From: Pirellulaceae bacterium
GTDB lineage: Bacteria; Planctomycetota; Planctomycetia; Pirellulales; Pirellulaceae
NCBI GenBank assembly: GCA_035440305.1
Contig: DAORMC010000002.1
Location: 1,295-65,294, forward strand
Direction: 5' to 3'
Length of the DNA stretch: 64,000 nucleotides
The position numbers were made by a program, and so were the translations under genes. The notes beneath the pieces are model-generated. The model was not told where the DNA came from and did no database searches. It worked only from the letters and a program-made list of their open reading frames with translations. How positions within the stretch are numbered: position 1 is the stretch's first letter; each line of letters opens with the position of its first letter. Shown here piece by piece: positions 72 through 32,877 of this stretch.

Positions 72-614
72 ATGTCCGAACGGTCCGACTTTCGACAGCC
101 GCCGCAGCGAGACGAGTACTTCGAGTACTACGCGAAGTACGTCGATCGGGTCCCGGAGGGGGATATCCGCGTGCTGCTGGACGAACAGGTCCGAACGCTG
201 CGGGAGCTCTTCGACGGAGTGTCGGAAACGACGGCATCGATCGTGCATCCGCCGTCGACCTGGACCTTGAAGCAGGTGGTCGGCCATCTGATCGACGCCG
301 AACGGATCTTCGCGGAGCGCCTGCATCATTTCGCGATGGGGGATCTGCAGCCGTTACCCGGCATGAACCAGGAGGAGTACGTCGCGCACGCCGACTACGA
401 GACGCCGTCGCTCGCGACGCTGGTCGACGAGTTGGTGCTGCTCCGACAGGCGAACGCCTTGCTGCTGCGGCGTCTGAAGCCGACCGATCTGGCGGCGCGA
501 GGGGAAGCATCGGGGCACCCGGTGACGGTCCGAGCCCTGGCCTGGATGCTCGTCGGGCACATCGAACACCACCTGACGATCGTCCGGCGCCGGCTGGCAG
601 AGAAAGGGGACTGA
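72..614 (+). CDS. DinB-family (DinB_2/YfiT-like) putative metal-dependent hydrolase
   Basis: 180-aa ORF. The His-containing helices 'GHLIDAERIF' and 'VGHIEHHLTIV' and the N-terminal 'YFEYYAKYV' fit the four-helix DinB fold. No competing ORF has recognisable content. Confidence 0.7.
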   Translation: MSERSDFRQPPQRDEYFEYYAKYVDRVPEGDIRVLLDEQVRTLRELFDGVSETTASIVHPPSTWTLKQVVGHLIDAERIFAERLHHFAMGDLQPLPGMNQEEYVAHADYETPSLATLVDELVLLRQANALLLRRLKPTDLAARGEASGHPVTVRALAWMLVGHIEHHLTIVRRRLAEKGD

Positions 615-981
615 CGGAACCCTCGAAGCGGCGTGGCAGGACCGACCGATGGCGTATTGGGCGAGCCCGTTCTTCGTAGGCACGATCATTCGGCATCGGT
701 CGGTCGTGAAGTCGATTGCCGCGAACGGGATTCGCTGCTTACACTCGGCCGATCGAAGTAGGGGCAGACTTCGGTCAGACGGCTCGGCGTCCGGAGACGG
801 AGACCGAACCGGTCGAGATCGTTCGTCGGATGATCGTAAGCGGCCGTGAGCTGTCGCGCGCCGAATCGTGGCAAGTGACGATCTCATGACGCGATCGCCG
901 ACGGCCCCTGTCTCGACTCGGTCTCGGGCTCGAACTCGTCGTTGTTCGGCCCCTCGGCTAACGGCGGACGTGGTGAAGCGC

Positions 982-1614
982 ATGTCGGAATCGGAACCTG
1001 CCGGTGTCGATCAGGAGCAGTTCCTGCAGGAGCTCCTGTCCACCGCACGCCATCGGATCGAACAGGTCTTTCGAGGAGAGGCCGGCGTTTCCCGCGGGGA
1101 CGAGGCACGAATCCGTCAACTGGCGACAGGCCTCCCCACGGATCATCGGGTAACGACTCTCCTGGGTGCGCTGGCGTCGGCCATCATCGAACTCGGGCCG
1201 CAAGCCGATCCGGCCGCGGCTCGTTTGCCCAGCGACGTCGACGCTCTGGCGAGCGAGCTCGTTCGACTCGCCTACAACCGTTGGCAACGGGAGCGTCGCG
1301 CGGGGAATCGAATCCGCCACCAAGCCGAGGTTGGGGAACGCGTCCCCGAGTTCGGCGGAGATTCGCAGGACCCCCGAGCATTGGATTCGCAGCCGACTTC
1401 ATCGGCGCCGCCGGAAATCCATGCACACTTTCGCGACGTCGTTGACCATCTGATGGGGCAGCTCTCCGAAGGCGACCTGCGGATCCTTGTCCTGTTCGCC
1501 GAAGGGCGAACGTTGGGGGAGATCGCAAGTCTCGTCGACTGCCACCGGACCACCATCTCGAGAAAGCTCGACCACTTCGCGGATATCGTCCGTCGCGTGT
1601 CGGCGAAGGACTGA
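982..1614 (+). CDS. HTH protein with a sigma-70 region-4/LuxR-like C-terminus (first gene of the kinase-GTPase operon)
   Basis: ORF 868-1614; I start it at ATG 982 (MSESEP...). The C-terminal 'LSEGDLRILVLFAEGRTLGEIASLVDCHRTTISRKLDHF' is a region-4-type helix-turn-helix. No clear sigma region 2 was seen, so it is not called a true sigma factor. Confidence 0.6.
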   Translation: MSESEPAGVDQEQFLQELLSTARHRIEQVFRGEAGVSRGDEARIRQLATGLPTDHRVTTLLGALASAIIELGPQADPAAARLPSDVDALASELVRLAYNRWQRERRAGNRIRHQAEVGERVPEFGGDSQDPRALDSQPTSSAPPEIHAHFRDVVDHLMGQLSEGDLRILVLFAEGRTLGEIASLVDCHRTTISRKLDHFADIVRRVSAKD

Positions 1615-1696
1615 TGAGCGAGCCTTCGCCGCATCGAGAGGCCCGAGCGATTCTCGTCCGTTCGTCGAGTCCGTCCGTTCCAGATCGGAAGCAGTC

Positions 1697-4600
1697 ATGA
1701 CCGAACCGCGAAGCAAGGAAGAGAGCACGACCGACGATGCCTTTCGATCGCCTTCGAAGCCTACCTTCGCACGACTCTCCCCTTCGCCTGACTCCGACGT
1801 GATCGATTCCGATACCTGGTCGCGACGTTGCGTCGCAGGACTGTCCGAAGACGATCGACGTCGATTCGAACGAGCGTGCGATCAGGGAGAAACGGAGCTG
1901 CGGGGAGGGGCCGCCCTGGAACAGGTCGCCGAGCGGGTCGATGTTTCCGAACCGATTCGGACGCTGGTGCTGCTTGACCTCGCGAAGTGCGCCGTCGAGT
2001 CGATGGCGCGCGAGGCGCGCGACGCCCGAGTCGCCGAGATCCTGAAGACTCTTCCTTCGCTGAGCGGAAACGAGGGAGCGAGGAAGGAACTTGTCGGCTT
2101 CGCGGACGGGTCCGGCGATCGTTCGGACGATACCGAGTCGCCGGTGCTACCTCCGACTCATGAACTCGTCAAACGCCTCCCTTCCCCAGGCTTATCGAAG
2201 CTGTATGTCGCGCGTCGCACGAAGCTCAATCGTCTCGAGTGCCTCAAGCTGGTGAACCTGGCCGAGATATCTCATCGCGAACTGGCCGCTCGAATCGCCG
2301 ATGAGGCCGAGCGCGCCTCGAAGCTGTCCCATCCCGGTCTGGTGCAGATCTTCGATGCCGGCGAAATCGCCGGGCACTGCTTTATCGCGATGGAGTACAT
2401 GAACGGCGGGAGTCTGGCCGATCGGATCTCGGCCGGACCTCTGCCGTGGGAAGATGCGATCCGGATCATCGCGACGGCTGCCAGGGCGCTTGATGCGTTG
2501 CATACCAAGGCCCGGCTGGCTCACGGCGACATCAAGCCGGCCAACCTGCTCTTCACGAGGACGATCGAAGGAGAAGAGCTGATCAAGATCGCCGACTTCG
2601 GTCTCTCGTCCGAGTTGGTCGAACAGGCTCGTGCGACGTCGGGCGAATCCAGGGGATACGTCTTCGGTACCGCCGGGTACGTCGCCCCCGAACTGCTCTC
2701 TTCCGAGGCGCGGGATTCGACCGTACTGCCGTTCGACGATCGGGTCACCGCCGACATCTTTGCACTCGGGGTCACGGCCTACGAAGCGATCAGCGGACGG
2801 CTGCCGTTCCAGACCGGGAGAGCGACCGATCCGTTGGGAGTGCTGAAGCATCCTTTTCGTCCGCTCACCGAACTTGTCCCCGGCGTGCCGAACGTCGTGG
2901 GGTACGCGATTCGTCGCGCCTGTTCGGTCGATCGTCGGGAGCGTTATCTGTCCGCCAAGGAGTTCGCGCGAGCGCTGGAGGGTTGCTTGGCGAATCGGGG
3001 GAGCGGCGCCGTCACTTCAGAGGTCGCTCGAAACGAACCGACGATGAGCATCGATCCCGAAGCGAAGTCATCGAAGCGATTCGGTCATAGGCAGCCGATC
3101 GTCATCATCAGCGCGATTGTCGCAACGGCGATCTGCGCCGCCATCGGTTCGGCGGTCTTCTCCTCGCGGTCGCGAATCGAGACGAGTTCGCAGGACTCCG
3201 CCGAACTCCCGAACGAGTTTTCGGATCTTCGACGAACATCGCCGGCTGTCGTCAGTCGCCCCGAATTGACCTCGGACTCTTCGGATCTGAAGCGACTGAT
3301 GTCGCGAGGTCTCTCGCGCGATAGCGCCGAAGCGGTCCTCGAGGTCAACAATGATTTTCTGGTGGCGCTGCGAGGTTCGTCCGGGTCGAGCTCGGCGGCC
3401 GAAACCGTACTGAACCTGCTGTCGGAGGTGGACGAGTCGCGGATCGGCAGCGAGACGATCGTCGCGAATCCTCAGATCGCCTCGTTTGCCGTCTATTCCG
3501 GGATCGAGTCGCTGCCGGCGTTCCTGCACGCCGTGGCTCATCCGGACGAGGACGAGCATTGCGTGACGAATCTCTGTATCCGGCATCCCGACTCGGCGAC
3601 CGTCGCGTCGTCGGCGATTCTCTGGCTCAGACGCATCGCACCGCTGCGTGCCCTGCAGCGGCAAGGGCTCTACGGCGCGGATGAAGCGCTGCTGCACGCC
3701 TCGGGCGTTCCGGAATACGAAGCTTGGGTCGAGCGGATCCTGGTCGAGCGGATCGACCGCGATCCGGGGCGGACGCTGCAGTGGCTGACGATCTATCTGG
3801 AGACTCATGACGCCATTCGGGCTCGCCTGGAAGATCGGGCGTTCGCGGCATCGTTCCCGAGAACCTGGGAACGATTCGTCGCTCTGGTCGATCGAGACGC
3901 GCGAACGGCCGAGGACTTCGCGATCAACGGCGATGCCTGGAACGTGTTGGCGATGGAGCAGGGGGATCGCCTGATCGACCGACTCGGACTGTTGGCCGCG
4001 CCGATCTTCGCCGGTAGCGAAGCATTGCCGGCCGATCCGGAACTTCGACGTCTCGCGGCGGAGTACCTGTTGGTCGGCTATCGTCCGATCGTCGAGGCAT
4101 TGTCGGATGCCGATCTTCGGCGGAACGGCGATTTCCTGGAGTTGCTTCGCAAGCGTCTGCCGGCCGAGGTCCTGGCGGAGGTCTGCCGACAGATCAACGC
4201 CGAGACGGCGGCCGGAACGGGCCCGGCTACCGCCGCTCGTCTCGCAGGGCTCGGGCGAGATCAGATCGTGGCGGATCTTTCCGGCGAAGACCTGAATCGT
4301 TGGGCAGCCGAGGATCTCGTGCCCCAACTGATCTATCTGCGTCTCGGCCTGAAGCTCGTCACCGGCGACTCGCTCTTCGGCGTCGAGCGGCAGGCGTTGC
4401 TCAAGCAGATCGTGATCGATGTGGTGACCCAGGGAGTGCCGATCGCCGCCAGCCGTCTCGGATTGCCGGTCGATCAAGCCAATGCGTTCGCGCAGCACTT
4501 CCCGATCGGCTACGAGATCGGAGAGAACGCGGTCAAGGATGCGATTCGACGAGAACGACTCGACGCGCTGGTGACGATCGACTCGGCCCCCGAGACCTTG

Positions 4601-5008
4601 GACGACTCCCGGCGACTGCAGACGGAGCTCCACGATCATCTCCGCGAAATCGTCTCGGCCGTGACGTCGCAGCGTGGCGATGTCGTGCTCGACATCACCG
4701 ACAGCATGCGGTTGTGCGAGGGCCTGTCGATCCGAGACGAGCGAGTCCGAGGAGCGTCGACGATAAGGATCGCGAGGTTCCTGCGACTTGCCGACGGACG
4801 CCTTTTCCCCGGCGTCATCACCAAGGACGGAATCTTCGCCGAGGAGACGGTCAAGCAGTTCTTCGACGATCGCTGGATGACGCTCACCTCGAAGAGCGCC
4901 GACGGCAGGAGCAAGGAAGAAGCGTGGCGAGAGTTGGTCTCGGCATGGGTTCTTCTCGGTGCCGGTGGCCTTCTGCCCGCAACCTCAACGACGACGGTGG
5001 AACCATGA
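1697..5008 (+). CDS. Membrane-spanning eukaryote-like Ser/Thr protein kinase (non-RD) with a ~600-aa C-terminal region of unknown function
   Basis: Start chosen at ATG 1697 (MTEPRSKE), preceded by GGAAG. Catalytic loop 'LAHGDIKPANLL' (HGD at 2522-2530), 'IADFGLS' (DFG at 2594-2602), 'GTAGYVAPELL', 'ECLKL' Lys strand. One hydrophobic helix 'IVIISAIVATAICAAIGSAVF' (~3093-3158). Confidence 0.85.
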   Translation: MTEPRSKEESTTDDAFRSPSKPTFARLSPSPDSDVIDSDTWSRRCVAGLSEDDRRRFERACDQGETELRGGAALEQVAERVDVSEPIRTLVLLDLAKCAVESMAREARDARVAEILKTLPSLSGNEGARKELVGFADGSGDRSDDTESPVLPPTHELVKRLPSPGLSKLYVARRTKLNRLECLKLVNLAEISHRELAARIADEAERASKLSHPGLVQIFDAGEIAGHCFIAMEYMNGGSLADRISAGPLPWEDAIRIIATAARALDALHTKARLAHGDIKPANLLFTRTIEGEELIKIADFGLSSELVEQARATSGESRGYVFGTAGYVAPELLSSEARDSTVLPFDDRVTADIFALGVTAYEAISGRLPFQTGRATDPLGVLKHPFRPLTELVPGVPNVVGYAIRRACSVDRRERYLSAKEFARALEGCLANRGSGAVTSEVARNEPTMSIDPEAKSSKRFGHRQPIVIISAIVATAICAAIGSAVFSSRSRIETSSQDSAELPNEFSDLRRTSPAVVSRPELTSDSSDLKRLMSRGLSRDSAEAVLEVNNDFLVALRGSSGSSSAAETVLNLLSEVDESRIGSETIVANPQIASFAVYSGIESLPAFLHAVAHPDEDEHCVTNLCIRHPDSATVASSAILWLRRIAPLRALQRQGLYGADEALLHASGVPEYEAWVERILVERIDRDPGRTLQWLTIYLETHDAIRARLEDRAFAASFPRTWERFVALVDRDARTAEDFAINGDAWNVLAMEQGDRLIDRLGLLAAPIFAGSEALPADPELRRLAAEYLLVGYRPIVEALSDADLRRNGDFLELLRKRLPAEVLAEVCRQINAETAAGTGPATAARLAGLGRDQIVADLSGEDLNRWAAEDLVPQLIYLRLGLKLVTGDSLFGVERQALLKQIVIDVVTQGVPIAASRLGLPVDQANAFAQHFPIGYEIGENAVKDAIRRERLDALVTIDSAPETLDDSRRLQTELHDHLREIVSAVTSQRGDVVLDITDSMRLCEGLSIRDERVRGASTIRIARFLRLADGRLFPGVITKDGIFAEETVKQFFDDRWMTLTSKSADGRSKEEAWRELVSAWVLLGAGGLLPATSTTTVEP

Positions 5009-7542
5009 ACTCAGGTCGGCAGAATCTCGTCTCGGGGCGGCCGAACTCCGCTGCGACAGGAGCAAGACCCTCGAACTCATTCGCCGCGGTCCGACGCATC
5101 GTGCTCTACGGCCGACCGGCATCGGGCAAGACCTGCCTGCTCGCCGCCTTGGCAATGCCTCGGGAGCCGCATCCCGACGGGCACTCGTGCATCTGGGTCT
5201 GCGACAGCCAGACGATCTCGCCTCCGAGCGGCAGTCGCGAGAGCTGGGACGTGAACGACCCGACGGTCGCCAGATTTCTGGGAAAGGAGTGGCTGCAGCG
5301 CGCGATCGACGCGATCTCGGCCGGCGAATTGCCGCGAGCGAATCCGAACGATGCGACTCCGTTTCGGCTGCTGTTCGACGTCACTCAGACGAACGGCCGC
5401 GTTCAGCGCATCGAGATGATCGACTACTCGGGAGAGCTCGTCGATCCGAACCTCTCGGACGACGTATTGGCTCGGAAGCTTCTGAATCATCTCGAGATGG
5501 CGGACGGCATTCTGGTCCTGGCCGAGGCTCCGCGCCGCGACGAACCGCTCTACGAGCTGTATCGCGAGCTGCAGATCCTTCAGCAGGCCCTGGCGTTGGT
5601 GAACGATCGTCGCCGCAAGACCAGTGCCGATCCGATTCCGATCGCCATGTTGCTCAACAAGTGGGATCGGTTCTCGAAGATGGAGGAGTTCGAGAAGGAG
5701 ATCGCTCAGATCGAGGTGCAGGAGTTCATCAATCAGAAGCCGGTCGTGCCGCAGCGAGCGCTCTACAGCGTGCTTCAGTCGCTGGCCGGCTCGCTGCACG
5801 AGACGCCGTTCTCCGAGATCTTTCCGGTCAGCGCGTTCGGCCGGACACGCCGCGAATCGCGCGAGATCGACGGCAAGGTGCGGGAACTGGAACTCCCTCG
5901 CGATCTGGCCCCTCTCCCCTCGTACGGCCTCGAGGATCCCCTTGTCTGGATCAGTCGCCGCACCGATCAGCTCGAGCTGCACGAACTCGAGCAGCGAGCC
6001 GGTCGACTCGCCTTCTGGAAGCTTTGGCAGCTGCCGTCGCGGACCGGGGCGAAAGTCAGCCGCCATGCCGAGGAACTCCGGCGGCGCATGCCGAGCCATC
6101 TTCCGGAAGCTCAGGCCTTGTCGCGCGTGGCCGAACGCGGGAATAAGGCCTTTCGATCCCAGCTCACGACGCTTGCGGCGCTGGTCCTCATGACCGTCGT
6201 CGGGACGGTACAGAGTGCGTTCGTCGTTCACGATTCGATCCGCTATGCGGCCGCCAAGTCGCTGGAGCGGGAACTCGATGCGGGGGCGAATCCGACGTCG
6301 CTGATCACTCCGCTCGACGAATCTTCCGGCTTTCTGGCAACCTATGCTCGCCCGTCATGGCTTCGTCTCGCTTCACAGATACTCGTGGCGTCGCCCGATA
6401 CCGCCCAAGACGTGCATCGACGGCTTTTGGCGGCGATCGAGCACGCGAATCATCTATCGGCAGCGACCAATGAGTTCCGGATCCGCTGCGGCAGCTTGGC
6501 GGCCGAAGCCGAAGCGACTCCCGACCCGGCGAGAGTCCAGGAATTGCTGGAGCAGCTCGAGTCGATGCCGCTTCCGACGGACCCGCTTCTCGCCGATCTG
6601 ACGGGTCAGATCAAGGAGAACGCTGCCGGTCGCGTCCGCGAGCGGATGACGCGGGTGGAGACCGCCGTCGGCACCGAACGACTGACCGCGGCTTACTTCG
6701 CGGACATGCGTGAGGCCCGGCTTCCTGAAGCGGTCGCTCGACTTGAATCGGGCAAGATCCAGTTTCCTGCCGAAGTCGCGCAGCTTCAGGCGAACTTCAG
6801 GAATCAATGGGTGTCGATCCTCCACGCCAAGGTGGTCGAACATGCCAAAGCCGATCGATGGGACTCGATCGAACAGCTGCTCGGAAGAATCCGCAACGAT
6901 AACGGAATGGCGGGATTGGTCGGCGCTCGTGAGGTGACTGCAAGAGTCGACCAGGAGCGGAGTCTGGTCGCCGACTGGCGAGCCGATCGCGCCTATGCTC
7001 GCTGGTTCATCAGCCCGTCGCTCACGTCGGCACAGACCGAAACGCTCGAGTTCGGACGCGACTGGCAGAAACGGACGGTCAAGGAGTGGCTCGCCTACCA
7101 GCAGTTCCTCTCGACCTCCCATTTTTGGCGACTGAAGATCAACCGGTTCACGACGTCGAACACCGGCAGTCTCTTCGATCCCACCGACTACTCCCTGACC
7201 GCCTATCATCAGGAGAACTACATCGGATCTGGCTCGTTCTCGGGTCCGGCGGGTGCGGCTGACGTGACGCTGTACATCGACTGCAACGACGTCGCCGGCC
7301 GCCCCGGTGACCCACTGACGTTCCGATTCAGCGCACGGACCACGAACTGGTTGGTGGAGAACATCTCGTTCCAAGGAGAGCTCAGCGGTGCGGCGATGAG
7401 CTTGACCTCGGAGTCGTGGGTACGGATAAGGACTCCGGCCGATTACCCGAACCCTGAGATTCGCGTGAGACTCGAGCCGGTCGGATTCACGATCCCTTCG
7501 GAACCGCAACTCCCCACCGCACAGGATCCCGACATCCGATGA
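5005..7542 (+). CDS. Membrane-anchored Ras-like (TRAFAC) GTPase with a long helical plus beta-rich C-terminal region
   Basis: ATG 5005 overlaps the kinase stop (ATGA). G1 'GRPASGKT' (5110-5133), G3 'DYSGE' (5422-5436), G4 'NKWD' (5656-5667), G5-like 'VSAF' (~5827-5838). Hydrophobic helix 'LTTLAALVLMTVVGTVQSAFVV' (~6163-6228). The ORF-track extension 4300-5004 overlaps the kinase in another frame and is Arg-rich. Confidence 0.8.
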   Translation: MNSGRQNLVSGRPNSAATGARPSNSFAAVRRIVLYGRPASGKTCLLAALAMPREPHPDGHSCIWVCDSQTISPPSGSRESWDVNDPTVARFLGKEWLQRAIDAISAGELPRANPNDATPFRLLFDVTQTNGRVQRIEMIDYSGELVDPNLSDDVLARKLLNHLEMADGILVLAEAPRRDEPLYELYRELQILQQALALVNDRRRKTSADPIPIAMLLNKWDRFSKMEEFEKEIAQIEVQEFINQKPVVPQRALYSVLQSLAGSLHETPFSEIFPVSAFGRTRRESREIDGKVRELELPRDLAPLPSYGLEDPLVWISRRTDQLELHELEQRAGRLAFWKLWQLPSRTGAKVSRHAEELRRRMPSHLPEAQALSRVAERGNKAFRSQLTTLAALVLMTVVGTVQSAFVVHDSIRYAAAKSLERELDAGANPTSLITPLDESSGFLATYARPSWLRLASQILVASPDTAQDVHRRLLAAIEHANHLSAATNEFRIRCGSLAAEAEATPDPARVQELLEQLESMPLPTDPLLADLTGQIKENAAGRVRERMTRVETAVGTERLTAAYFADMREARLPEAVARLESGKIQFPAEVAQLQANFRNQWVSILHAKVVEHAKADRWDSIEQLLGRIRNDNGMAGLVGAREVTARVDQERSLVADWRADRAYARWFISPSLTSAQTETLEFGRDWQKRTVKEWLAYQQFLSTSHFWRLKINRFTTSNTGSLFDPTDYSLTAYHQENYIGSGSFSGPAGAADVTLYIDCNDVAGRPGDPLTFRFSARTTNWLVENISFQGELSGAAMSLTSESWVRIRTPADYPNPEIRVRLEPVGFTIPSEPQLPTAQDPDIR

Positions 7543-9293
7543 ACGAGGTCGTCGTGATCGCCGCATTGAACTCCGGTCTCCGCGGGCGGCGAGGGCACGT
7601 GACGCTGGTTTCGAACCGACGAGCTGCCGAAGATGCTGCCTCCGAGAGGATCGCCTACATCACCGGCCTGATCAGAATGTCGGTCGAAGGGAGCGATCTC
7701 GGGGCCGAGTTCGTCGCGGGAGACGACTTCCTGATCGGCAAGGACTTCCTCGGAGTCGCCGTTGCCGCGTCTCAGGAAACGTCCCATCGATCCGCGCCAG
7801 AAGTCTTCCTGATCTGGAACTGCCGCACGTCGGGTCTGACGGAGGGGCAGCGCACGCGCGCTCTGGATTGGCTCCGGGAGCTCTCCGGCGATCGTGGAGC
7901 GCTGATCGGCGAGGTCACATCCGGAGCGTCGACCCAAACGGTCGTCTTCTCGGAAACGCTGAGCTCGTGGAGTGCCGCCTACTGCAGTCAACTTCCTGCC
8001 GGAAATGGCCTCCCCAAAACGGCTCACGAATCCGCTCGACTAAACGGATCGCAAGCCTCCGGTGTTCCCTTGCGCTGGACCAAGCTCATCCCCATCGGCG
8101 TTATCCTCGGTCTCGCTATCGGAGGCATCCTCGCGATCGCGAACCTGCCTCCCGGAAGGAAGCCCGAGAACGTGAAGGGAGATCGTTCGGACGAACCGGC
8201 GGCTGGGGATACCGACGAGGCACCGGTCGAATCGCTCGTCACCGATGCGCCGGATATCGATCCGTTCCGAAACTGGCAGGCCGATGCTGCGGCTTTGGAA
8301 CGAGGGTTGGTCGACGAGGCGTTGCCGCTCGACCGTGCCGTTAACGAACTGGCCGCCGTCGTCGACGAGCTGACCCGAGCCTCGTTTCGGAATGATGACG
8401 AGTATCGTCAGGCCTACGACCTGATCGGACGCTCGGCGCGAACGATTCGCGATCGCGTGACCAAGGGGATGGAGGCCGATGCGGACGAACTGCGACGCTC
8501 CCTGGAGTCGCTCCCGAACTTCGAGGACCTGAGAGAGTCGTATGAGACCGCTCGGGCGAAGGACCAGTTGCTCGCCGATCTCGAAGCGACGGTGCGGCCG
8601 CTGCCGATTCCGATGGAGTCGACAGGCGATGTCGAATCGGCGCGAGATGGATTTCTGAGAGAGGTCGAGGCCGCGGTCGTGGCTCGGGCTTCGACGCTGT
8701 TCGCCTCGACGTCCGATCGCGCATCGACAGGCGCCGTGATCGGTTGGTTACTGCGTGCTTCCGAATCGGAGTTCGGCCGGGAACTGGCCGGTTTCGGTTC
8801 GTCTCGACGATTGGGGGGCGTCTTCCGTGCGATTTCGAGACTCGAAACGACCGACGACGTCGAAATCATCGTCACGGCCGATGAGGTACCGTTCGGCCGC
8901 CCGGTGAAGTTCGTTCTGGTCGACGGTGCGGAAGCCGAGTTGGTCTTCTCCGGCGAACCCGAATCGAATCGCGGTGGATTGCAGCGGTTTCCGCAAGAGT
9001 CGGGCCGAGGCCGCTGGACGGTTCGCGGCGTCACTCTGAAGAACCTGTTGGCCTGTCGGCGGATCATCGTCGTTCTGGCGGCTCGCGGTCCGCGGTTCGA
9101 GTTCGAGTTCGATCACCGAGTTCTCGCGAAGGAAACCGGACGGACGCTCTGCCCGTCGATACGTGTCGAAGAGGGACGGTTCGAGGGGCGATGCGAGGTT
9201 CTCCTGCGAGGCGATTCGATGCGACAGGTGTTGGCAGAGATGCACCGCGCATGCGAACTGCCTTCGGACGATTCCGCCGGAGGACCGAACTGA
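7539..9293 (+). CDS. Hypothetical single-pass membrane protein (last gene of the kinase-GTPase operon)
   Basis: ATG 7539 overlaps the GTPase stop (ATGA). It has a ~185-aa N-terminal module, then the helix 'LIPIGVILGLAIGGILAIANL', an acidic linker, a helical region and a beta-rich C-terminus. No motif recognised. Confidence 0.65.
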   Translation: MNEVVVIAALNSGLRGRRGHVTLVSNRRAAEDAASERIAYITGLIRMSVEGSDLGAEFVAGDDFLIGKDFLGVAVAASQETSHRSAPEVFLIWNCRTSGLTEGQRTRALDWLRELSGDRGALIGEVTSGASTQTVVFSETLSSWSAAYCSQLPAGNGLPKTAHESARLNGSQASGVPLRWTKLIPIGVILGLAIGGILAIANLPPGRKPENVKGDRSDEPAAGDTDEAPVESLVTDAPDIDPFRNWQADAAALERGLVDEALPLDRAVNELAAVVDELTRASFRNDDEYRQAYDLIGRSARTIRDRVTKGMEADADELRRSLESLPNFEDLRESYETARAKDQLLADLEATVRPLPIPMESTGDVESARDGFLREVEAAVVARASTLFASTSDRASTGAVIGWLLRASESEFGRELAGFGSSRRLGGVFRAISRLETTDDVEIIVTADEVPFGRPVKFVLVDGAEAELVFSGEPESNRGGLQRFPQESGRGRWTVRGVTLKNLLACRRIIVVLAARGPRFEFEFDHRVLAKETGRTLCPSIRVEEGRFEGRCEVLLRGDSMRQVLAEMHRACELPSDDSAGGPN

Positions 9294-9622
9294 CGCCACG
9301 GAACCGGTTTCCCGCGATGTATCGGGAGCATCCTGGCGATGAGGTCGGCGCTCCACTCGGCTCGTCCTGCCTGACGAGACCGAAGAACGAAGCGAGGATT
9401 CGCGAGAACAACCGACGGAACGCCCGAAGGACCGATCGCGACGACGAGCGGTCCGAACTCGATTCCGGTCCCCTCAACATCCGCAGCCCGTGATGCCGAC
9501 CGCAGCCGGCGATCCCGGACACCCCCTTTCTACGACATTCGTTTCGTGCTTCAATGGGCGCACGTTGACCGACAGCCGGTCGGTCGAGGGCGTTCCGGAA
9601 CTGCGTATCGAACGAGGGGTCC

Positions 9623-11059
9623 ATGAGCGTGCGCGTCGTCGTGGCGGAGGGAGACGGAGTCGGTCCCGAGATCACTCGCGCGGTCCTGAAGATCATCCGC
9701 GCGGCCGAAGCGCCGATCGAATGGGAGCCGATTCGGGTCGGACAGGCGATCTACGAACAGGGAAACACCTCCGGCGTTCCGGCCGATGCCTGGGGAGCGA
9801 TCCGCCGTCACGGCGTGCTCCTCAAGGGGCCGATCACGACGCCGCAGGGGAAGGGCTTCAAGAGCGTCAACGTCACCATCCGCAAGGCGCTCAACCTGTT
9901 CGCCAACGTCCGTCCCTGCAAGGCCTACGCCCCGTTTGTCGCCTCGCCGCATCCCGGCATGAACCTGGTCATCGTCCGCGAGAACGAGGAAGACCTGTAC
10001 GCCGGCATCGAACACCGACAGACCCCCGAAGTCCGGCAGGTCCTGAAGCTGGTGACTCGCCCCGGCTGCGAGAAGATCATCCGCTACGCGTTCGAGTACG
10101 CTCGCGCCTACGGTCGCCGCAAGGTCTCGTGCATGACCAAGGACAACATCATGAAGCAGACCGACGGTCTGTTTCATCAGGTGTTCGACGAGGTCGCGGC
10201 GGAGTATCCCGAGATCGAGGCGAACCATTTCATCATCGACATCGGAGCGGCGCGACTGGCCGCCAGCCCCGAGATCTTCGACGTCATCGTCACGCTCAAC
10301 CTGTACGGCGACATCCTCTCGGACATCGCCGCCCAGATCGCCGGCTCGGTCGGCTTCGCCTCGTCCGCCAACGTCGGCGAGCAGGTGTCGATGTTCGAGG
10401 CGGTGCACGGCTCGGCTCCCGACATCGCCGGACGCGGGATCGCCAATCCGTCCGGCCTGCTGATCGCCGCGACTCAGTTGCTCGTTCACGTCGGCCTTTC
10501 GGAGCAGGCCTCGGTCATCAAGAACGCCTGGCTCCGTACTCTCGAAGACGGCATCCATACCCCCGACGTCCATCGCGAAGCGATCAGCTCGCGCAAGGTC
10601 GGTACCGACGACTTCGCCGAAGCGATCATCGAGCGACTGGGAAGCGAGCCGCGAGTGCTCGAACCGGTCCGCTACCGGACGACGCGTCCGATTCAGGTCA
10701 GCTATCGCACGACGCCGACCGAGCAACGACTGGTCGGCGTCGACGTCTTTCTCGGCTGGGACCAGGAAGGGCGAGACCCGAACGTGCTGGCGGAGCATCT
10801 GCACCGGGCGTCGACCGACACGCTGCGCCTGGGGCTGATCACCAACCGAGGGGTCAAGGTCTACCCCGACGGCCTTCCCGAAACCTTCCGGACCGACCAT
10901 TGGCGTTGTCGCTTCAAGGCCGAGGCGGACGAGATCCCTTACGCACGGGTCATCGAACTGCTGCAGCGAATCGACCAGGCCGGCCTGCGCGTCATCAAGA
11001 CCGAGAACCTCTACACCTTCGACGGCTCGCCCGGCTTCTCGTTGGGGCAGGGGGAATAG
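9623..11059 (+). CDS. icd: Isocitrate dehydrogenase (isocitrate/isopropylmalate dehydrogenase family, long 478-aa form)
   Basis: 'VVVAEGDGVGPEI', 'LLKGPITTP', 'NVTIRKALNLFANVRPC', 'NLVIVRENEEDLYAGIEH', 'LNLYGDILSDIAAQIAGSVG' and 'FEAVHGSAPDIAG' are the canonical family motifs. Confidence 0.9.
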   Translation: MSVRVVVAEGDGVGPEITRAVLKIIRAAEAPIEWEPIRVGQAIYEQGNTSGVPADAWGAIRRHGVLLKGPITTPQGKGFKSVNVTIRKALNLFANVRPCKAYAPFVASPHPGMNLVIVRENEEDLYAGIEHRQTPEVRQVLKLVTRPGCEKIIRYAFEYARAYGRRKVSCMTKDNIMKQTDGLFHQVFDEVAAEYPEIEANHFIIDIGAARLAASPEIFDVIVTLNLYGDILSDIAAQIAGSVGFASSANVGEQVSMFEAVHGSAPDIAGRGIANPSGLLIAATQLLVHVGLSEQASVIKNAWLRTLEDGIHTPDVHREAISSRKVGTDDFAEAIIERLGSEPRVLEPVRYRTTRPIQVSYRTTPTEQRLVGVDVFLGWDQEGRDPNVLAEHLHRASTDTLRLGLITNRGVKVYPDGLPETFRTDHWRCRFKAEADEIPYARVIELLQRIDQAGLRVIKTENLYTFDGSPGFSLGQGE

Positions 11060-16949: not shown

Positions 16950-17234
16950 GCGTCACACGTCACGGAGAAGGAAGAGAGACCGAGTACCGCGTCTCGGTAC
17001 GATCGGCCCGGCAATCGTTCGACGATCACCGTAGCGAGTTTCGACGACGAAGAAACGCCCTCGCCGTCGGCATGGTCCCGTTTCGATTCGATTCGTCCCC
17101 GATCGATCGACCGGTAACCGGCGAAAGCCGTACAACAAAGGGGGCGAGCCGACTGATGGCCGGCGTCGGCGGTCGTATCGGACGTGACGCCGAAGCCGCC
17201 GTCCGACCCTTCGTCCGATTCGGAGACGCCTGAG

Positions 17235-19394: not shown

Positions 19395-19618
19395 TCGAAG
19401 CGGCAGAAGCGATTCGCGTCAGCGGAGATGTCGACCACGACCGTCGATCGATCGGGGTCCCTGACGCGCTACGCTCACCTCGACGAACCCTTCGCGCTTC
19501 GAGGTCTCTCCTCCGCTTCGTCCCCCTCGGCTACGATCGAAGCGTTCTTGAATGACACGGAGCGGCGGTTTCGCGGCGGGACGTCGGTCGTCTGCTTCGA
19601 GGTGACGGGGTAACGGTC

Positions 19619-20353
19619 ATGTGCGTCCGGAAGCAGTTTCACGGCGGGCTTGCTCTGTCGTTGATCACGTTGTTGCCGGGGTGCGGTGAGCCGGCGGTCG
19701 CTCCTTCGTCGAACGACTCCGCGAGCCTGCCGCCGAGCGCTGCCCAGGAGCGCCCCGACGTCTCCGCTCCGTCGTCCGATCGCCGCGCTGCCGACTGGGC
19801 CAGACAGTTCGGCGGAACGCTCGTGCTGACTCTCGACGGACGCCCCGTCGAACTGGCTGCTGATCAGCCGCTCCCTTCGGCGGCCTTCTTCGTGCGCGAG
19901 ATCCGATTTCCGGAGGGGACCGTCGCCGTCGACGATGCGGGATTGAGCAACGTCGCGTCGCTGACCGATCTGCGAGTCCTCGAGATCCGCGGTTCTTCCG
20001 TCACCGATGCCGGCGTGGAACGACTGAGCGCGGTTCGGACGCTCGAGCGGATCAACCTCCATGCCACGCACGTGACCGATCGGTCGCTCGAAGTCCTGGC
20101 CTCTCTGCCGAACCTGAACGACCTGGATGTCGGCTGGAACCGATCGATCACCGATGTCGGCCTCCGATCGATCGTCCGCATGAAGTCGCTCCGGAATCTG
20201 AACCTCTTCGAAACGGCGATCACCGCGTCCGGGCTCGATGAGCTCGCGACCCTGTCGAACCTCGAGTGGCTCGACCTGACCGACCACCATCCTTCACCGT
20301 CGACTCTCGAAGCGATTCGCGCGGCCAATCCCGGCGTGACGATCGAACTCTGA
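19619..20353 (+). CDS. Leucine-rich-repeat lipoprotein
   Basis: Lipobox-like 'LITLLPGCGEP', then about 24-aa LRRs ('LTDLRVLEIRGSSVTDAGVERL', 'LPNLNDLDVGWNRSITDVGLRSI', 'LRNLNLFETAITASGLDEL'). Confidence 0.7.
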   Translation: MCVRKQFHGGLALSLITLLPGCGEPAVAPSSNDSASLPPSAAQERPDVSAPSSDRRAADWARQFGGTLVLTLDGRPVELAADQPLPSAAFFVREIRFPEGTVAVDDAGLSNVASLTDLRVLEIRGSSVTDAGVERLSAVRTLERINLHATHVTDRSLEVLASLPNLNDLDVGWNRSITDVGLRSIVRMKSLRNLNLFETAITASGLDELATLSNLEWLDLTDHHPSPSTLEAIRAANPGVTIEL

Positions 20354-32864: not shown

Positions 32865-32877
32865 CGTGATTTCCGGC

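What the first reader, a model, noticed from the sequence alone, without database searches (positions are those of the whole stretch)
5005..7542. 845-aa membrane-anchored GTPase carrying all five G motifs
G1 GRPASGKT (5110-5133), G3 DYSGE (5422-5436), G4 NKWD (5656-5667) and a G5-like VSAF are in the correct order and spacing for a Ras-like/TRAFAC G domain. The domain is followed by a hydrophobic helix (~6163-6228). After that comes a ~440-aa tail that is first helical and then beta-rich ('TLYIDCNDVAGRPGDPLTFRFSARTTNWLVENISFQGEL'). Small-GTPase domains tethered to a membrane by a downstream helix are familiar from eukaryotic GIMAP/atlastin-type proteins. They are uncommon as annotated bacterial families.
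Basis: seen in the sequence. Interest (0 to 1): 0.7.

Follow-up and report, generated by a model that had tools for sequence, protein, structure and literature searches.

The report
Membrane-anchored large GTPase in kinase operon
The ORF is a real membrane-anchored GTPase, but it is a large, dynamin-shaped G protein distantly related to the 'DO-GTPase' family rather than a Ras-like one, and it sits at the centre of an uncharacterised three-protein membrane module that this planctomycete has wired to a Ser/Thr kinase and a DNA-binding protein.

Summary
They are invariant across 30 homologues of 21-59% identity. No conserved G2 threonine exists, and the motif spacing fits a ~300-aa large G domain, not a Ras-like one.

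An AF2 model (pLDDT 86) places each motif at the end of its expected strand. Fold searches in PDB and BFVD rank GBP, atlastin and dynamin GTPases first. The only recurrent Pfam signal is sub-threshold DO-GTPase1/2, including that family's Walker-B glutamate (DYSGE).

One conserved hydrophobic helix with a K/R-rich N-flank predicts a cytoplasmic G domain. A ~290-aa helical region and a C2-like beta-sandwich would lie outside.

The gene is translationally coupled (ATGA overlaps) in an operon: sigma4-like HTH protein, Ser/Thr kinase-TM-'X' domain, GTPase, TM protein 'D'. Of 45 species-representative loci with both flanks readable, 27 carry X-G-D and 15 carry G alone. They span Planctomycetota, Verrucomicrobiota, Desulfobacterota-type MAGs and giant sulfur bacteria. 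X and D have no Pfam or PDB relatives, and GAP1, the defining DO-GTPase partner, is absent.

Best reading: the GTPase is the switch subunit of a transmembrane envelope-signalling module. This is a new variant of a known kind. The function is inferred, not shown.

The parts
982..1614 (+). H: ~210-aa protein with a C-terminal sigma-70 region-4-like HTH. It is the first gene of the cassette. The ORF opens at GTG 868, but homology starts at M39 (nt 982).
   Evidence: Homologues lie directly upstream of the kinase in 10 distinct loci. All Pfam hits are sub-threshold: HTH_38 6.7e-5, Sigma70_r4_2 2.3e-3 (7.6e-6 in a homologue), Sigma70_ECF in 2 of 5 members.
1697..5008 (+). K-X: receptor-type Hanks Ser/Thr kinase. 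The probable ATG is at 1697; the ORF is open from TTG 1487. The stop codon overlaps the GTPase start (ATGA).
   Evidence: Pkinase E 5.9e-33. The HGDIKPANL, DFG and APE motifs are present. The junction sequence is shown.
2162..3046 (+). Kinase catalytic domain (residues 226-520 of the 1173-aa ORF).
3098..3160 (+). Transmembrane helix of K-X (IVIISAIVATAICAAIGSAVF).
   Evidence: Kyte-Doolittle 19-residue mean 2.42.
3263..5005 (+). X domain (~580 aa), predicted extracytoplasmic. It has conserved Trp residues and a C-terminal W-x-x-N-x-S-A-W-W-L motif. Elsewhere it occurs as a stand-alone protein with an N-terminal membrane anchor, encoded upstream of the GTPase.
   Evidence: A local HMM covers residues 593-1173. 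Of 53 GTDB loci with a readable upstream flank, 36 carry X. N-terminal anchors and the C-terminal motif are shown. There is no Pfam or PDB relative.
5005..7542 (+). G: the 845-aa membrane-anchored GTPase. This is the finding.
5089..6009 (+). Large G domain (residues ~29-335). G1 is at nt 5110-5133, G3/Walker B with Glu (DYSGE) at 5422-5436, G4 (NKWD) at 5656-5667, G5 (SAF) at 5830-5838, and a conserved GLEDP at 5926-5940.
   Evidence: Invariant columns. Strand and motif register in the AF2 model. Sub-threshold DO-GTPase1/2 hits. Foldseek ranks the dynamin superfamily first.
6163..6228 (+). Single transmembrane helix (residues 387-408), lying within a long predicted helix (367-425). Invariant D410 follows it.
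   Evidence: Kyte-Doolittle mean 2.14. The hydrophobic peak is conserved in 30 of 30 homologues, with a K/R-rich N-flank.
6232..7113 (+). All-helical region (residues ~410-703), predicted extracytoplasmic. Its length varies between lineages; it is expanded by repeats in L055.
   Evidence: AF2 secondary structure. Alignment gaps and insertions. The 1307-aa paralogue is shown.
7120..7479 (+). C-terminal 8-strand beta-sandwich with a C2-like fold (residues 706-825). A conserved P-x-x-P-x-L-P tail follows.
   Evidence: AF2 model. Foldseek hits to C2 domains of NEDD4L, Itch, cPLA2, E-Syt and perforin, with target-normalised TM-score 0.43-0.63 and prob ~1.0. The tail motif is visible.
7539..9293 (+). 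D: 584-aa single-pass membrane protein. Its start overlaps the GTPase stop codon (ATGA). The conserved N-domain of ~170 aa (nt 7539-~8050) is predicted cytoplasmic, the TM helix is at nt 8085-8147, and the C-terminal region is variable (helical, then beta-rich).
   Evidence: Junction sequence. The D family is present downstream of G in 36 of 55 readable GTDB loci. Alignment A4 has Q79 and L112 invariant and P11 and R84 at >=90%. Some members end within 5 residues of the TM helix. No Pfam or PDB relative.

Best explanation
**What it is**

The ORF encodes a real GTP-binding protein anchored in the cytoplasmic membrane. It has:
- a ~300-aa cytoplasmic large G domain, a divergent relative of the DO-GTPase family with dynamin/GBP/atlastin-like overall architecture;
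- three short helices, then one transmembrane helix;
- an extracytoplasmic ~290-aa helical region tipped by a C2-like beta-sandwich.

**What it belongs to**

It is the central subunit of a conserved three-protein membrane module.
- X is a ~600-aa ectodomain held by an N-terminal anchor.
- G is this GTPase.
- D is a ~170-aa cytoplasmic domain followed by a TM helix and a variable ectodomain.

In this Pirellulaceae genome and its relatives, X is fused behind a Hanks-type Ser/Thr kinase. A sigma4-like HTH protein is encoded first in the operon.

**Proposed mechanism**

Every step here is inferred.
1. The ectodomains of X and G (and D) form an envelope- or periplasm-facing sensor.
2. Changes there are relayed through the TM helices to the G domain. 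The G domain cycles GTP/GDP, probably by nucleotide-dependent dimerisation as in dynamin-type and DO-type GTPases. The Walker-B Glu144 and/or invariant Arg53 would act in catalysis.
3. The cytoplasmic domain of D acts as the G domain's regulator or effector.
4. The nucleotide state gates the adjacent kinase, as in a split Roc-kinase arrangement.
5. The kinase phosphorylates the HTH/sigma-like protein to change transcription.

**Shown versus inferred**

Shown here: the motifs and their conservation, the fold prediction, the gene order and its conservation, the fusions, and the hydrophobic segments. Inferred: GTP hydrolysis, topology, physical contacts, direction of signalling, and output.
For: **G domain**
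- G1, G3, G4 and G5 are invariant across 30 homologues and correctly placed on the AF2 strands.
- DO-GTPase1 and DO-GTPase2 are the only recurrent Pfam families, matching 20 and 17 of 30 members.
- The family's hallmark Walker-B glutamate is present (PMC7159879).
- Foldseek ranks GBP/RNF112 (PDB) and dynamin/atlastin/GBP (BFVD) first.

**Topology**
- All 30 homologues have a hydrophobic segment at the same alignment position, and the N-flank is usually richer in K/R than the C-flank.
- D has 3.4 K/R on its N-flank against 1.95 on its C-flank. Some D proteins end within 0-5 residues of the TM helix, so the N-domain must be cytoplasmic.
- X follows a TM helix both when fused to the kinase and when stand-alone, in 31 of 37 cases.

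**Module**
- ATGA start/stop overlaps join K-X to G and G to D.
- The same H, K-X, G, D order occurs at 29-59% GTPase identity in Pirellulales-type metagenome contigs and in a Tepidisphaeraceae genome.
- Of 45 GTDB species-representative loci with both flanks readable, 27 have X and D, 15 have neither, and only 3 have one of the two.

**Kinase link**
- K-X fusions occur in 10 distinct loci.
- A Pirellulaceae locus encodes an HxxxCxxC-kinase-G-domain fusion next to a full-length G and a D.
- The window kinase keeps the catalytic HGD, DFG and APE motifs.

**Not a mobile or defence context**
- The flanks are DinB, isocitrate dehydrogenase, SDR and amine oxidase genes.
- There are no relatives on IMG/VR viral contigs.
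- The only plasmid hit is a chromid carrying housekeeping genes.
Against: - Nothing has been tested biochemically. GTP binding, topology and the contacts between subunits are all predictions.
- No G2 threonine is conserved, so the catalytic mechanism is unclear.
- Every DO-GTPase Pfam score is below the gathering cut-off. The window protein scores 18 bits and the best relative 26.9, against a cut-off of 27.
- Foldseek TM-scores to GBP and dynamin are low (0.14-0.29), so the similarity is architectural and local, not a global superposition.
- The fold of D is unknown because the AF2 model failed (pLDDT 37.6). The fold of X was not modelled. Their roles as regulator and sensor are therefore guesses.
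- Most X-G-D loci outside Planctomycetota have no kinase and no HTH gene. Kinase-to-transcription output cannot be the ancestral function of the module.
- 15 of the 45 loci have G alone.
- The HTH protein is only weakly sigma-like.
Confidence: 0.45

Rival explanations
1. It is a conflict or immunity system of the 'GTPase-centric' type described for DO-GTPases. G would be a threshold-setting switch. On sensing an invader at the envelope, it would deploy a membrane-acting effector, for example the C2-like domain, the variable D ectodomains or the F7 protein. The kinase would add a regulatory layer.
For: - DO-GTPases are the nearest sequence family.
- PMC7159879 describes GAP1-N2-type systems in planctomycetes and verrucomicrobia. 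These have TM-anchored GTPases carrying beta-sandwich domains beyond a C-terminal TM helix, and an actinobacterial theme with protein kinases.
- The post-TM regions of D vary greatly in length, from 0 to 515 residues, and the G helical region shows lineage-specific expansions.
- The taxa involved (filamentous or giant sulfur bacteria, PVC) are ones the paper links to such systems.
Against: - GAP1, the defining constant partner, is absent. No GAP1-N, -M or -C hit appears in any of 42 D or 36 X sequences.
- No recognisable effector domain (nuclease, TIR, peptidase, SLATT, FGS and the like), no FNIII component and no zinc ribbon occur in the loci examined.
- Gene content is constant rather than effector-variable.
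- The flanks are housekeeping genes, not defence islands.
- PADLOC matches only the generic kinase domain.
- There are no viral or mobile-plasmid copies.
Confidence: 0.2
2. It is a dynamin/atlastin/GBP-like mechano-GTPase that tethers, shapes or repairs membranes. G-domain dimerisation would be coupled through the helical bundle and TM helix to an ectodomain whose C2-like tip binds a second membrane, either the outer membrane or an invagination. X and D would be cofactors.
For: - Both structure libraries rank dynamin-superfamily proteins first.
- The G domain is large (~300 aa) and is followed by helices and a membrane anchor.
- The C-terminal sandwich resembles lipid-binding C2 domains.
- The phyletic pattern is Planctomycetota, Verrucomicrobiota, Thiomargarita, Beggiatoa-type bacteria, Achromatium and Magnetococcales. 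By own knowledge these lineages have unusual envelopes or internal membranes.
- Stand-alone G genes sit in stable housekeeping synteny, in three loci next to SLT, RlpA-like and PBP5 cell-wall genes.
- DO-GTPases have been suggested to act in membrane stress (PMC11237479).
Against: - No sequence match to Dynamin_N or GBP Pfam models appears in any member.
- TM-scores are low.
- The single TM helix puts the bulk of the non-G part outside the cytoplasm. This differs from atlastin (two TM helices, all else cytosolic) and from BDLP (paddle insertion).
- Repeated fusion and linkage to a kinase and an HTH protein point to signalling.
- The link between phyletic pattern and endomembranes is an impression, not a test.
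Confidence: 0.2
3. The N-terminal domain is not a working GTPase. It would be an ATPase or a nucleotide-binding pseudo-enzyme that merely scaffolds the kinase complex.
For: - No conserved switch-I threonine.
- A few homologues give stray sub-threshold P-loop hits to ABC_tran, AAA_24, AAA_28 or nSTAND6.
Against: - Those hits occur in 1-3 members each and, where the extent is listed (P0041), cover only the P-loop region.
- NKxD has K219 and D221 invariant, and the SA(F/L)G motif is conserved. Both argue for guanine specificity.
- Walker A Lys, Walker B Asp and Glu144 are invariant over 21-59% identity, which is unlike decaying pseudo-enzymes.
- The fold search returns GTPases only.
Confidence: 0.05

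Closest known systems
DO-GTPases (Pfam PF19975 DO-GTPase1, PF19993 DO-GTPase2) of the 'GTPase-centric' systems of Kaur, Burroughs, Iyer and Aravind 2020 (PMC7159879), especially the GAP1-N2 type
   Same: - It is the only sequence family that recurs in scans of the homologues (20 and 17 of 30).
- It shares a TRAFAC-type G domain with a conserved Glu after Walker B DxxG.
- Some described members are membrane-anchored and carry beta-sandwich domains beyond a C-terminal TM helix.
- They occur in planctomycetes and verrucomicrobia, and one theme is linked to protein kinases.
- Paired paralogous GTPases are seen here too. They are adjacent in L055, and giant sulfur bacterium MAGs carry one clustered plus one solo copy.
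   Different: - All scores are below Pfam's gathering cut-off.
- No GAP1 partner was found.
- There are no N-terminal zinc ribbons, no N-terminal TM helices, no FNIII component and no variable effector genes.
- The partners here are two families (X and D) with no Pfam model.
- The context is housekeeping, not island-like.
Dynamin superfamily large GTPases: GBP1/2/5, RNF112, atlastin, dynamin
   Same: - They are the best structural matches in both libraries. PDB hits have E 2.5e-5 to 1e-3. BFVD dynamin, atlastin-like and GBP hits have E 2e-6 to 8e-4.
- The G domain is ~300 aa with insertions, and helical bundles follow it.
- The protein is membrane-attached.
   Different: - No sequence-profile match.
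- TM-scores are only 0.14-0.29.
- The G4 motif is a canonical NKxD.
- A single TM helix is followed by a large predicted extracytoplasmic region ending in a C2-like sandwich.
- The gene is operonic with a kinase.
ROCO proteins (Roc GTPase-COR-kinase, e.g. LRRK2 and bacterial Roco). A functional analogy from own knowledge, not tested here.
   Same: A GTPase and a protein kinase are coupled in one signalling unit. Here they are adjacent, translationally coupled genes. In L055 they are fused in one polypeptide.
   Different: - No Roc or COR Pfam match.
- The domain order in the L055 fusion is kinase then GTPase.
- The components here are membrane-embedded with ectodomains.
ECF-type sigma factors controlled by Ser/Thr kinases (ECF43-like groups common in Planctomycetes; EcfP-PknT of Vibrio). 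From own knowledge; PMC7826278 was listed but not read.
   Same: A small sigma4-HTH protein is encoded immediately upstream of a membrane Ser/Thr kinase.
   Different: - The H protein reaches no sigma-factor Pfam threshold, and Sigma70_ECF matches only 2 of 5 members weakly.
- Known pairs do not include a GTPase or the X and D components.
C2 domains (NEDD4L, Itch, cPLA2, extended synaptotagmin, perforin)
   Same: The C-terminal 8-strand sandwich superposes with target-normalised TM-score 0.43-0.63 and Foldseek probability ~1.0.
   Different: - No Pfam C2 hit, and only 6-15% identity.
- Ca2+- and lipid-binding residues were not examined.
- Its predicted location is outside the cytoplasm.

Membership tests
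P-loop GTPase, TRAFAC class | Walker A / G1 GxxxxGK[ST] | tested here: met
   GRPASGKT is at residues 36-43. G36, G41 and K42 are invariant and T43 is at >=90% in 30 homologues.
P-loop GTPase, TRAFAC class | Walker B / G3 DxxG at the end of a strand | tested here: met
   D140-Y-S-G143 is invariant and follows strand 133-140 in the AF2 model.
P-loop GTPase, TRAFAC class | Guanine-specificity motif G4 [NT]KxD | tested here: met
   NKWD is at residues 218-221. K219 and D221 are invariant, while N varies to T, D or S in some homologues. The motif follows strand 213-218.
P-loop GTPase, TRAFAC class | G5 SA[KL]-like motif | tested here: met
   In S276-A-F-G279, S276 and G279 are invariant. The motif follows strand 270-274.
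P-loop GTPase, TRAFAC class | Conserved switch-I threonine (G2) | tested here: not met
   No conserved Thr or Ser lies between helix alpha1 and the strand before Walker B. Only R53 and P110 are invariant there.
P-loop GTPase, TRAFAC class | Antiparallel strand next to the Walker-B strand | tested here: inconclusive
   DSSP shows a hairpin-like pair of strands (120-127 and 133-140) just before DYSGE. Model coordinates and sheet order could not be inspected.
DO-GTPase (PF19975 / PF19993) | Profile match above Pfam's gathering score (27 bits) | tested here: not met
   The window protein scores 18.0 and 18.3 bits. The best of the nine homologues whose bit scores were listed scores 26.9, and that protein also gave the lowest E-value among all 30 members. 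At E<=0.05, 20 and 17 of 30 members match.
DO-GTPase (PF19975 / PF19993) | Conserved glutamate in or after the Walker B motif | tested here: met
   E144 in DYSGE is invariant. The feature is as defined in PMC7159879.
DO-GTPase (PF19975 / PF19993) | Adjacent GAP1 protein (GAP1-N1/N2, -M, -C) | tested here: not met
   No GAP1 model is hit by the downstream protein family (42 members), by the X family (36 members) or by the window proteins. Sensitivity is limited to that of HMMER.
DO-GTPase (PF19975 / PF19993) | Two paralogous GTPases in the system (in 38% of described systems) | tested here: not met
   The 64-kb window holds only one copy. Pairs occur elsewhere: adjacent in L055, and as a clustered plus a solo copy in the same MAGs.
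DO-GTPase (PF19975 / PF19993) | N-terminal zinc ribbon(s) (in 60% of described members) | tested here: not met
   No cysteine lies N-terminal to the G domain; the first 60 residues hold a single Cys, C44, just after the P-loop. The first 26 residues are predicted disordered.
DO-GTPase (PF19975 / PF19993) | Variable effector genes or domains in the neighbourhood | tested here: not met
   The neighbourhoods are X, (F3), G, D, (f1, F7) and, in Planctomycetota, H plus a kinase. No known effector domain was found.
Dynamin superfamily (dynamin / GBP / atlastin) | Sequence-profile match to Dynamin_N or GBP families | tested here: not met
   Neither family appears for any of the 30 members at E<=0.05. 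A profile search of PDB sequences gave no GTPase hit better than E ~2.
Dynamin superfamily (dynamin / GBP / atlastin) | Large G domain followed by a helical bundle; structural similarity | tested here: inconclusive
   Dynamin-superfamily proteins rank first in PDB and BFVD with probability ~1.0, but TM-scores are 0.14-0.29 and rmsd is 17-41 A. A G-domain-only model was not made.
Dynamin superfamily (dynamin / GBP / atlastin) | Nucleotide-dependent G-domain dimerisation that stimulates hydrolysis | not testable with these tools
   This needs biochemistry or multimer modelling.
   No AIG1 or GBP/atlastin Pfam hit. There is one TM helix at residues 387-408 followed by ~440 residues. The positive-inside pattern predicts that this region is extracytoplasmic.
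Ras-like small GTPases (Ras / Rho / Roc / MglA) | ~170-200-aa G domain matching the Ras, Roc or small_GTP profiles | tested here: not met
   There is no Ras or Roc Pfam hit. TIGR00231 small_GTP scores 15 bits against a cut-off of 42.5 and covers only the P-loop. The G domain is ~300 aa with motif spacing 104/78/58.
C2 domain | 8-strand beta-sandwich of the C2 fold | tested here: met
   Eight strands lie between residues 706 and 825. Foldseek target-normalised TM-score to C2 domains is 0.43-0.63.
C2 domain | Sequence-family match, and Ca2+- or lipid-binding loops | not tested
   No Pfam C2 hit at E<=0.1. The loop residues were not analysed.

The most novel reading that the evidence does not exclude
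X-G-D is a previously undescribed transmembrane GTPase machine that lacks GAP1.
- It is a single-pass, dynamin-shaped large GTPase whose ectodomain pairs with a dedicated ~600-aa extracytoplasmic partner (X). Its G domain is served by a membrane-anchored cytoplasmic partner (D).
- It would be a bacterial counterpart of receptor-coupled G-protein/kinase signalling, or of atlastin/GBP-type membrane tethering.
- It is found mainly in PVC bacteria and giant sulfur bacteria, and has been wired to Ser/Thr kinases by gene fusion.
Probability: 0.3. Interest if true: 0.8.

Novelty: new variant of a known kind. Interest (0 to 1): 0.6.

Why it matters
Bacterial signalling across the membrane is known mostly through histidine kinases, anti-sigma factors and Hanks kinases. 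A GTPase that is itself a single-pass membrane protein with a large ectodomain, genetically locked to a receptor kinase, would be a different wiring principle. It would also be a prokaryotic parallel to eukaryotic GTPase-kinase modules.

The work defines three protein families that no Pfam model covers: X, D and this branch of G. It also gives their consistent gene order across at least four phyla, so the system can now be tested. A cultured carrier exists (Zavarzinella formosa DSM 19928), and a distant G-plus-D-like pair is present in Haliovirga abyssi.

The structural similarity to dynamin, GBP and atlastin, and the occurrence in bacteria with unusual envelopes, also make it a candidate for envelope or endomembrane biology.

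If it turns out to be a derived DO-GTPase conflict system, it would still show that the family can operate without GAP1.

Tried and rejected
1. **Ras/Roc/MglA, Era, septin and AIG1 placement.** No Pfam or NCBIfam support.
2. **KAP/AAA/ABC ATPase reading.** Only stray P-loop-only hits in 1-3 homologues. Rejected because NKxD and SAxG are invariant.
3. **Profile search of PDB sequences** with the GTPase family, the D N-domain and the X domain. Nothing significant.
4. **D or X as a diverged GAP1.** Per-member Pfam scans found no GAP1 or any other consistent family.
5. **D as a Roadblock- or longin-like regulator.** This idea came from the beta-beta-alpha-beta-beta-alpha pattern. The AF2 model built from the only five admissible sequences failed (pLDDT 37.6). 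No fold search was run on it, so the idea is neither supported nor excluded.
6. **More D homologues.**
   - Two word-index searches returned only the identical protein.
   - An exhaustive phmmer search of 1.84 billion representatives returned four real relatives.
   - Local HMM iteration on the fetched loci was what recovered the family, with 47 members.
7. **G and D ectodomains as paralogues.**
   - True in Haliovirga (32% identity over 228 aa, E 2e-14).
   - Not detectable in the window (hhalign probability 3%) or in 35 other pairs (best E 0.01).
8. **Defence-system libraries.** PADLOC matches only the generic kinase domain.
9. **Phage or plasmid carriage.** None on IMG/VR contigs. There was one chromid hit among 72,556 plasmids.
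10. **Promoter and terminator scan of nt 500-9800.** No sigma-70-like site. Two terminator-like hairpins lie inside D, fewer than the shuffled expectation. Uninformative.
11. **Literature.** Searches for a prior description of this operon found only the general DO-GTPase paper and one mention in the PSP paper.

Full report
**1. The observation**

The ORF 5005-7542 (+) exists and encodes 845 aa. Its codon-position GC (0.65/0.47/0.77) fits coding sequence in this 65% GC window.

- GRPASGKT: residues 36-43, nt 5110-5133.
- DYSGE: residues 140-144, nt 5422-5436.
- NKWD: residues 218-221, nt 5656-5667.
- VSAF: residues 275-278.
- Hydrophobic helix: residues 387-408, nt 6163-6228.
- The quoted beta-rich peptide starts at residue 755.

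The same protein is deposited as a hypothetical protein of a Pirellulaceae MAG. That record starts 32 residues later, at a GTG codon (813 aa). The ATG at 5005 is the better start. It forms an ATGA overlap with the upstream stop codon, and it keeps the conserved strand before the P-loop.

The motifs are not chance matches. In 30 homologues of 21-59% identity these positions are invariant: G36, G41, K42, D140-Y-S-G-E-L145, K219, D221, R222, S276 and G279. Also invariant are R53, P110, D167, E174, L309, E310 and D410.

An AlphaFold2 model built on that alignment has mean pLDDT 85.9. It puts each motif at the C-terminal end of the strand where a GTPase would carry it.

- No conserved G2 threonine exists, so 'all five G motifs' is an overstatement.
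- The spacing (104, 78 and 58 residues between successive motifs) fits a ~300-aa large G domain with insertions, not a Ras-like one.

**2. The protein itself**

*Curated libraries.* None places it.
- Pfam gives only sub-threshold DO-GTPase1 (18.0 bits) and DO-GTPase2 (18.3 bits), against a cut-off of 27.
- NCBIfam gives a P-loop-only small_GTP hit at 15 bits against a cut-off of 42.5.
- PADLOC gives nothing meaningful.

*Scans of the homologues.* DO-GTPase1 matched 20 of 30 and DO-GTPase2 matched 17 of 30. No other GTPase family recurred, and ATPase families appeared in 1-3 members through the P-loop only. The best score in the family is 26.9 bits, still under threshold.

*The DO-GTPase family.* Kaur et al. 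2020 defined it as a TRAFAC family with a conserved glutamate in Walker B (PMC7159879). Here that glutamate is the invariant E144 of DYSGE.

*Structure searches.* A profile search of PDB sequences found nothing. Fold searches did give a consistent answer.
- In PDB, Foldseek ranks GBP5, GBP1, GBP2 and RNF112 first for the N-terminal half. C2 domains come first for the C-terminal sandwich, with target-normalised TM-score 0.43-0.63.
- In BFVD it ranks giant-virus dynamin-family, atlastin-like and GBP proteins first.
- TM-scores for the G part are low (0.14-0.29). This is an architectural resemblance, not membership.

*Domain layout from the model.*
- Disordered residues 1-26.
- G domain, ~29-335.
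- Three helices.
- A long helix (367-425) that contains the hydrophobic stretch.
- An all-helical region to residue 703.
- An 8-strand sandwich, 706-825.

*Topology.* All 30 homologues have a hydrophobic peak at the same alignment position (Kyte-Doolittle 19-residue mean 1.41-2.59). The N-flank is usually richer in K/R than the C-flank. This predicts that the G domain is inside and the C-terminal ~440 residues are outside. It is a prediction only.

**3. The surroundings**

*The window operon.* The gene is the third of four co-directional genes.
- **H** (nt 982-1614) is a ~210-aa protein with a sigma-70 region-4-like HTH. All its Pfam hits are sub-threshold.
- **K-X** (nt 1697-5008) is a Hanks-type Ser/Thr kinase (Pkinase 5.9e-33). 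Its HGD, DFG and APE motifs are intact. A TM helix (nt 3098-3160) and a ~580-aa C-terminal domain follow; I call that domain X.
- **G** (nt 5005-7542) is the GTPase.
- **D** (nt 7539-9293) has a conserved ~170-aa N-domain, a TM helix (nt 8085-8147) and a C-terminal region that is helical and then beta-rich.

The K-X/G and G/D junctions are ATGA overlaps. The flanking genes are metabolic: DinB-family upstream, then isocitrate dehydrogenase, SDR and amine oxidase downstream.

*The same order elsewhere.* H, K-X, G, D recurs on contigs carrying homologues at 33-38% identity. It also recurs in a Tepidisphaeraceae genome at 29% identity.

*Species-representative genomes.* A scan of GTDB representatives returned 76 loci. 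The record titles name these groups:
- Planctomycetota: Gemmataceae (including the cultured Zavarzinella formosa DSM 19928), Isosphaeraceae, Pirellulaceae, Planctomycetaceae and Tepidisphaeraceae.
- Verrucomicrobiota.
- Thermodesulfobacteriota and 'Deltaproteobacteria' MAGs.
- Giant and filamentous sulfur bacteria: Thiomargarita, Ca. Parabeggiatoa, Thioploca, Marithrix and Achromatium.
- Magnetococcales and Competibacteraceae.
- A few MAGs carry surprising labels and may be mis-binned.

*The conserved core.* I called ORFs in all loci, clustered them and iterated local HMMs. The core is X, then G, then D.
- Stand-alone X proteins are ~600-690 aa and have an N-terminal membrane anchor.
- X proteins end in a conserved W-x-x-N-x-S-A-W-W-L motif.
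- D always has its N-domain followed by a TM helix. What follows the TM ranges from 0-5 residues to 515 residues.

*Co-occurrence.* Among 45 loci with both flanks readable, 27 have X and D, 15 have neither, 2 have X only and 1 has D only. This near all-or-none pattern argues that the three work together.

*Lineage variants.*

| Variant | Where seen |
|---|---|
| H + K-X + G + D | Planctomycetota; 10 distinct loci, including the window |
| X + F3 (~350 aa) + G + D | Planctomycetota (incl. Gemmataceae), Verrucomicrobiota and a few proteobacterial MAGs |
| X + G + short D | Desulfobacterota-type MAGs |
| X + G + D + f1 + F7 | Sulfur bacteria |

*Solo G genes.* These lie among housekeeping genes: coaD-like, trigger factor and prmA, and in three loci SLT, RlpA-like and PBP5 genes. 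Several sulfur-bacterium MAGs carry one clustered and one solo G.

*A fusion.* In a Pirellulaceae MAG (L055) a 720-aa protein joins an HxxxCxxC motif, a kinase domain and a G domain. A 1307-aa full-length G and a D follow it.

*Partner families.* None of X, D, F3 or F7 has a Pfam family, even when 36 X and 42 D sequences were scanned one by one. None has a relative among PDB sequences.

*Mobility.*
- No relative lies on IMG/VR viral contigs.
- The single plasmid hit is a housekeeping-gene-bearing chromid of Haliovirga abyssi.
- It carries a 707-aa G-like protein with DFAGEL, TKWD, SAFG and one TM helix. A 433-aa TM protein follows it.
- In that organism the post-TM regions of the two proteins are paralogous (32% identity over 228 aa, E 2e-14).
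- This is not detectable in the window or in 35 other pairs.

**4. How it most likely works**

*What is shown.*
- A conserved guanine-type P-loop domain.
- One conserved hydrophobic helix in each of K-X, G and D. The bulk of K-X and G, and a variable part of D, lie on the C-terminal side of it.
- Tight and widely conserved gene linkage.
- Repeated fusion of X, and once of a G domain, to a Ser/Thr kinase.

*What I infer from that.*
- G is the nucleotide-dependent switch of a membrane complex. Its outer face is formed by X and the ectodomains of G and D. Its inner face is formed by the G domain, the D N-domain and, in Planctomycetota, the kinase.
- The D N-domain has an invariant Gln (Q79) and a nearly invariant Arg (R84). 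It is the natural candidate for a GAP-, GEF- or effector-like partner, but its fold is unknown because the AF2 model failed (pLDDT 37.6).
- In the window's version the likely output is kinase activity towards the sigma4-like H protein. This is by analogy with kinase-controlled ECF sigma factors and with Roc-kinase coupling in ROCO proteins. Both analogies come from my own knowledge and were not tested here.

I put about 0.85 on the identity and anatomy, and about 0.45 on the signalling mechanism as a whole. The kinase-free X-G-D loci show that kinase output is a lineage-specific addition. The ancestral role of the core remains open.

**5. Rivals**

*A DO-GTPase-type conflict system (0.2).*
- For: this is the nearest sequence family. 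Kaur et al. describe membrane-anchored versions with beta-sandwich ectodomains in planctomycetes and verrucomicrobia, and kinase-linked versions in actinobacteria. The D ectodomains are variable.
- Against: the defining GAP1 partner, zinc ribbons, FNIII proteins and variable effectors are all absent. The contexts are housekeeping ones.

*A dynamin/atlastin-like membrane tether or remodeller (0.2).*
- For: it fits the fold-search ranking, the C2-like tip and the odd phyletic pattern.
- Against: it does not fit the single-TM topology or the kinase and HTH linkage.

*A non-GTPase or pseudo-enzyme reading (0.05).* The invariant catalytic and specificity residues argue against it.

**6. Comparison with known families, and novelty**

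*How it works versus what it is.* It works like a membrane-anchored molecular-switch GTPase. It is not a demonstrable member of any curated family. Membership tests gave these results:
- DO-GTPase: fails the Pfam threshold and the GAP1 criterion, but meets the Walker-B Glu criterion.
- Dynamin, GBP and atlastin: fail at the sequence level and are inconclusive at the structure level.
- Ras, Roc and GIMAP: fail.

*Novelty.*
- I found no paper describing this operon.
- I therefore class it as a new variant of a known kind: a GAP1-less, single-pass, ectodomain-bearing branch of DO-like large GTPases.
- It comes with two new partner families and a lineage-specific kinase and HTH output.
- Interest is 0.6. 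The anatomy and conservation are solid and the system can be tested, but the function is inferred and a related class was already predicted computationally.

Noticed in passing
L055:308-2470 and L055:2614-6537 (uncultured Pirellulaceae MAG): A 720-aa protein fuses an N-terminal HxxxCxxC motif (resembling a zinc-binding anti-sigma motif; recalled from memory, not tested), a Ser/Thr kinase domain and a TM-less G domain of this family. It is followed by a 1307-aa G whose helical ectodomain is expanded by tandem repeats, and then by D.
   Followed up: partly
L084:7944-11370 (Haliovirga abyssi chromid pHIC, NZ_AP027060.1): A distant G-like protein (707 aa) is followed by a 433-aa TM protein. The post-TM regions of the two are paralogous (32% identity over 228 aa, E 2e-14). 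This hints that G and D ectodomains may share an origin. It was not detectable in any other locus.
   Followed up: yes
L039:8492-9031, L034:11060-11599, L033:12621-13169 and others (sulfur-bacterium loci): F7 is a highly conserved ~180-aa protein at the end of the X-G-D-f1 clusters of giant sulfur bacteria. Its consensus (…WTTAADFDLAA…GLIYF…) reminded me of TerD-type beta-sandwich proteins, but it has no Pfam hit at E<=0.5.
   Followed up: partly
L040:6900-7988, L068:7004-7957 and 10 other loci: F3 is a ~350-aa protein family encoded between X and G in Gemmataceae, Verrucomicrobiota and some other genomes. It has a hydrophobic segment near the C-terminus and no Pfam hit. It may occupy the place that the kinase has in the window type.
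   Followed up: partly
L021, L037, L042, L047, L058, L059 and others (Thiotrichaceae): Solo paralogues of the GTPase sit in conserved synteny with coaD-like, trigger factor and prmA genes. In L049, L058 and L059 they also lie next to lytic transglycosylase (SLT_2), an RlpA-like DPBB protein and PBP5. The same MAGs also carry a separate X-G-D cluster.
   Followed up: partly
window 5005 versus 5101: The public annotation of this protein (NCBI, 813 aa) starts at GTG V33. That start would remove most of strand beta1 before the P-loop. The ATG at 5005, which overlaps the kinase stop codon, is the more likely start.
   Followed up: yes
window 31650-32924 (-): A 424-aa ORF has atypical codon-position GC (GC3 0.58, against 0.7-0.85 for its neighbours). 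It may be recently acquired DNA, or not a real gene.
   Followed up: no
window 17184-20353 (+): A transglutaminase-like membrane protein (736 aa) is followed by a 244-aa leucine-rich-repeat protein. Neither is related to the cassette.
   Followed up: no
L002:16023-19472: In one homologous locus a second large Ser/Thr kinase with TPR repeats, together with an ECF-like sigma gene, lies 3-4 kb downstream of the cassette.
   Followed up: no
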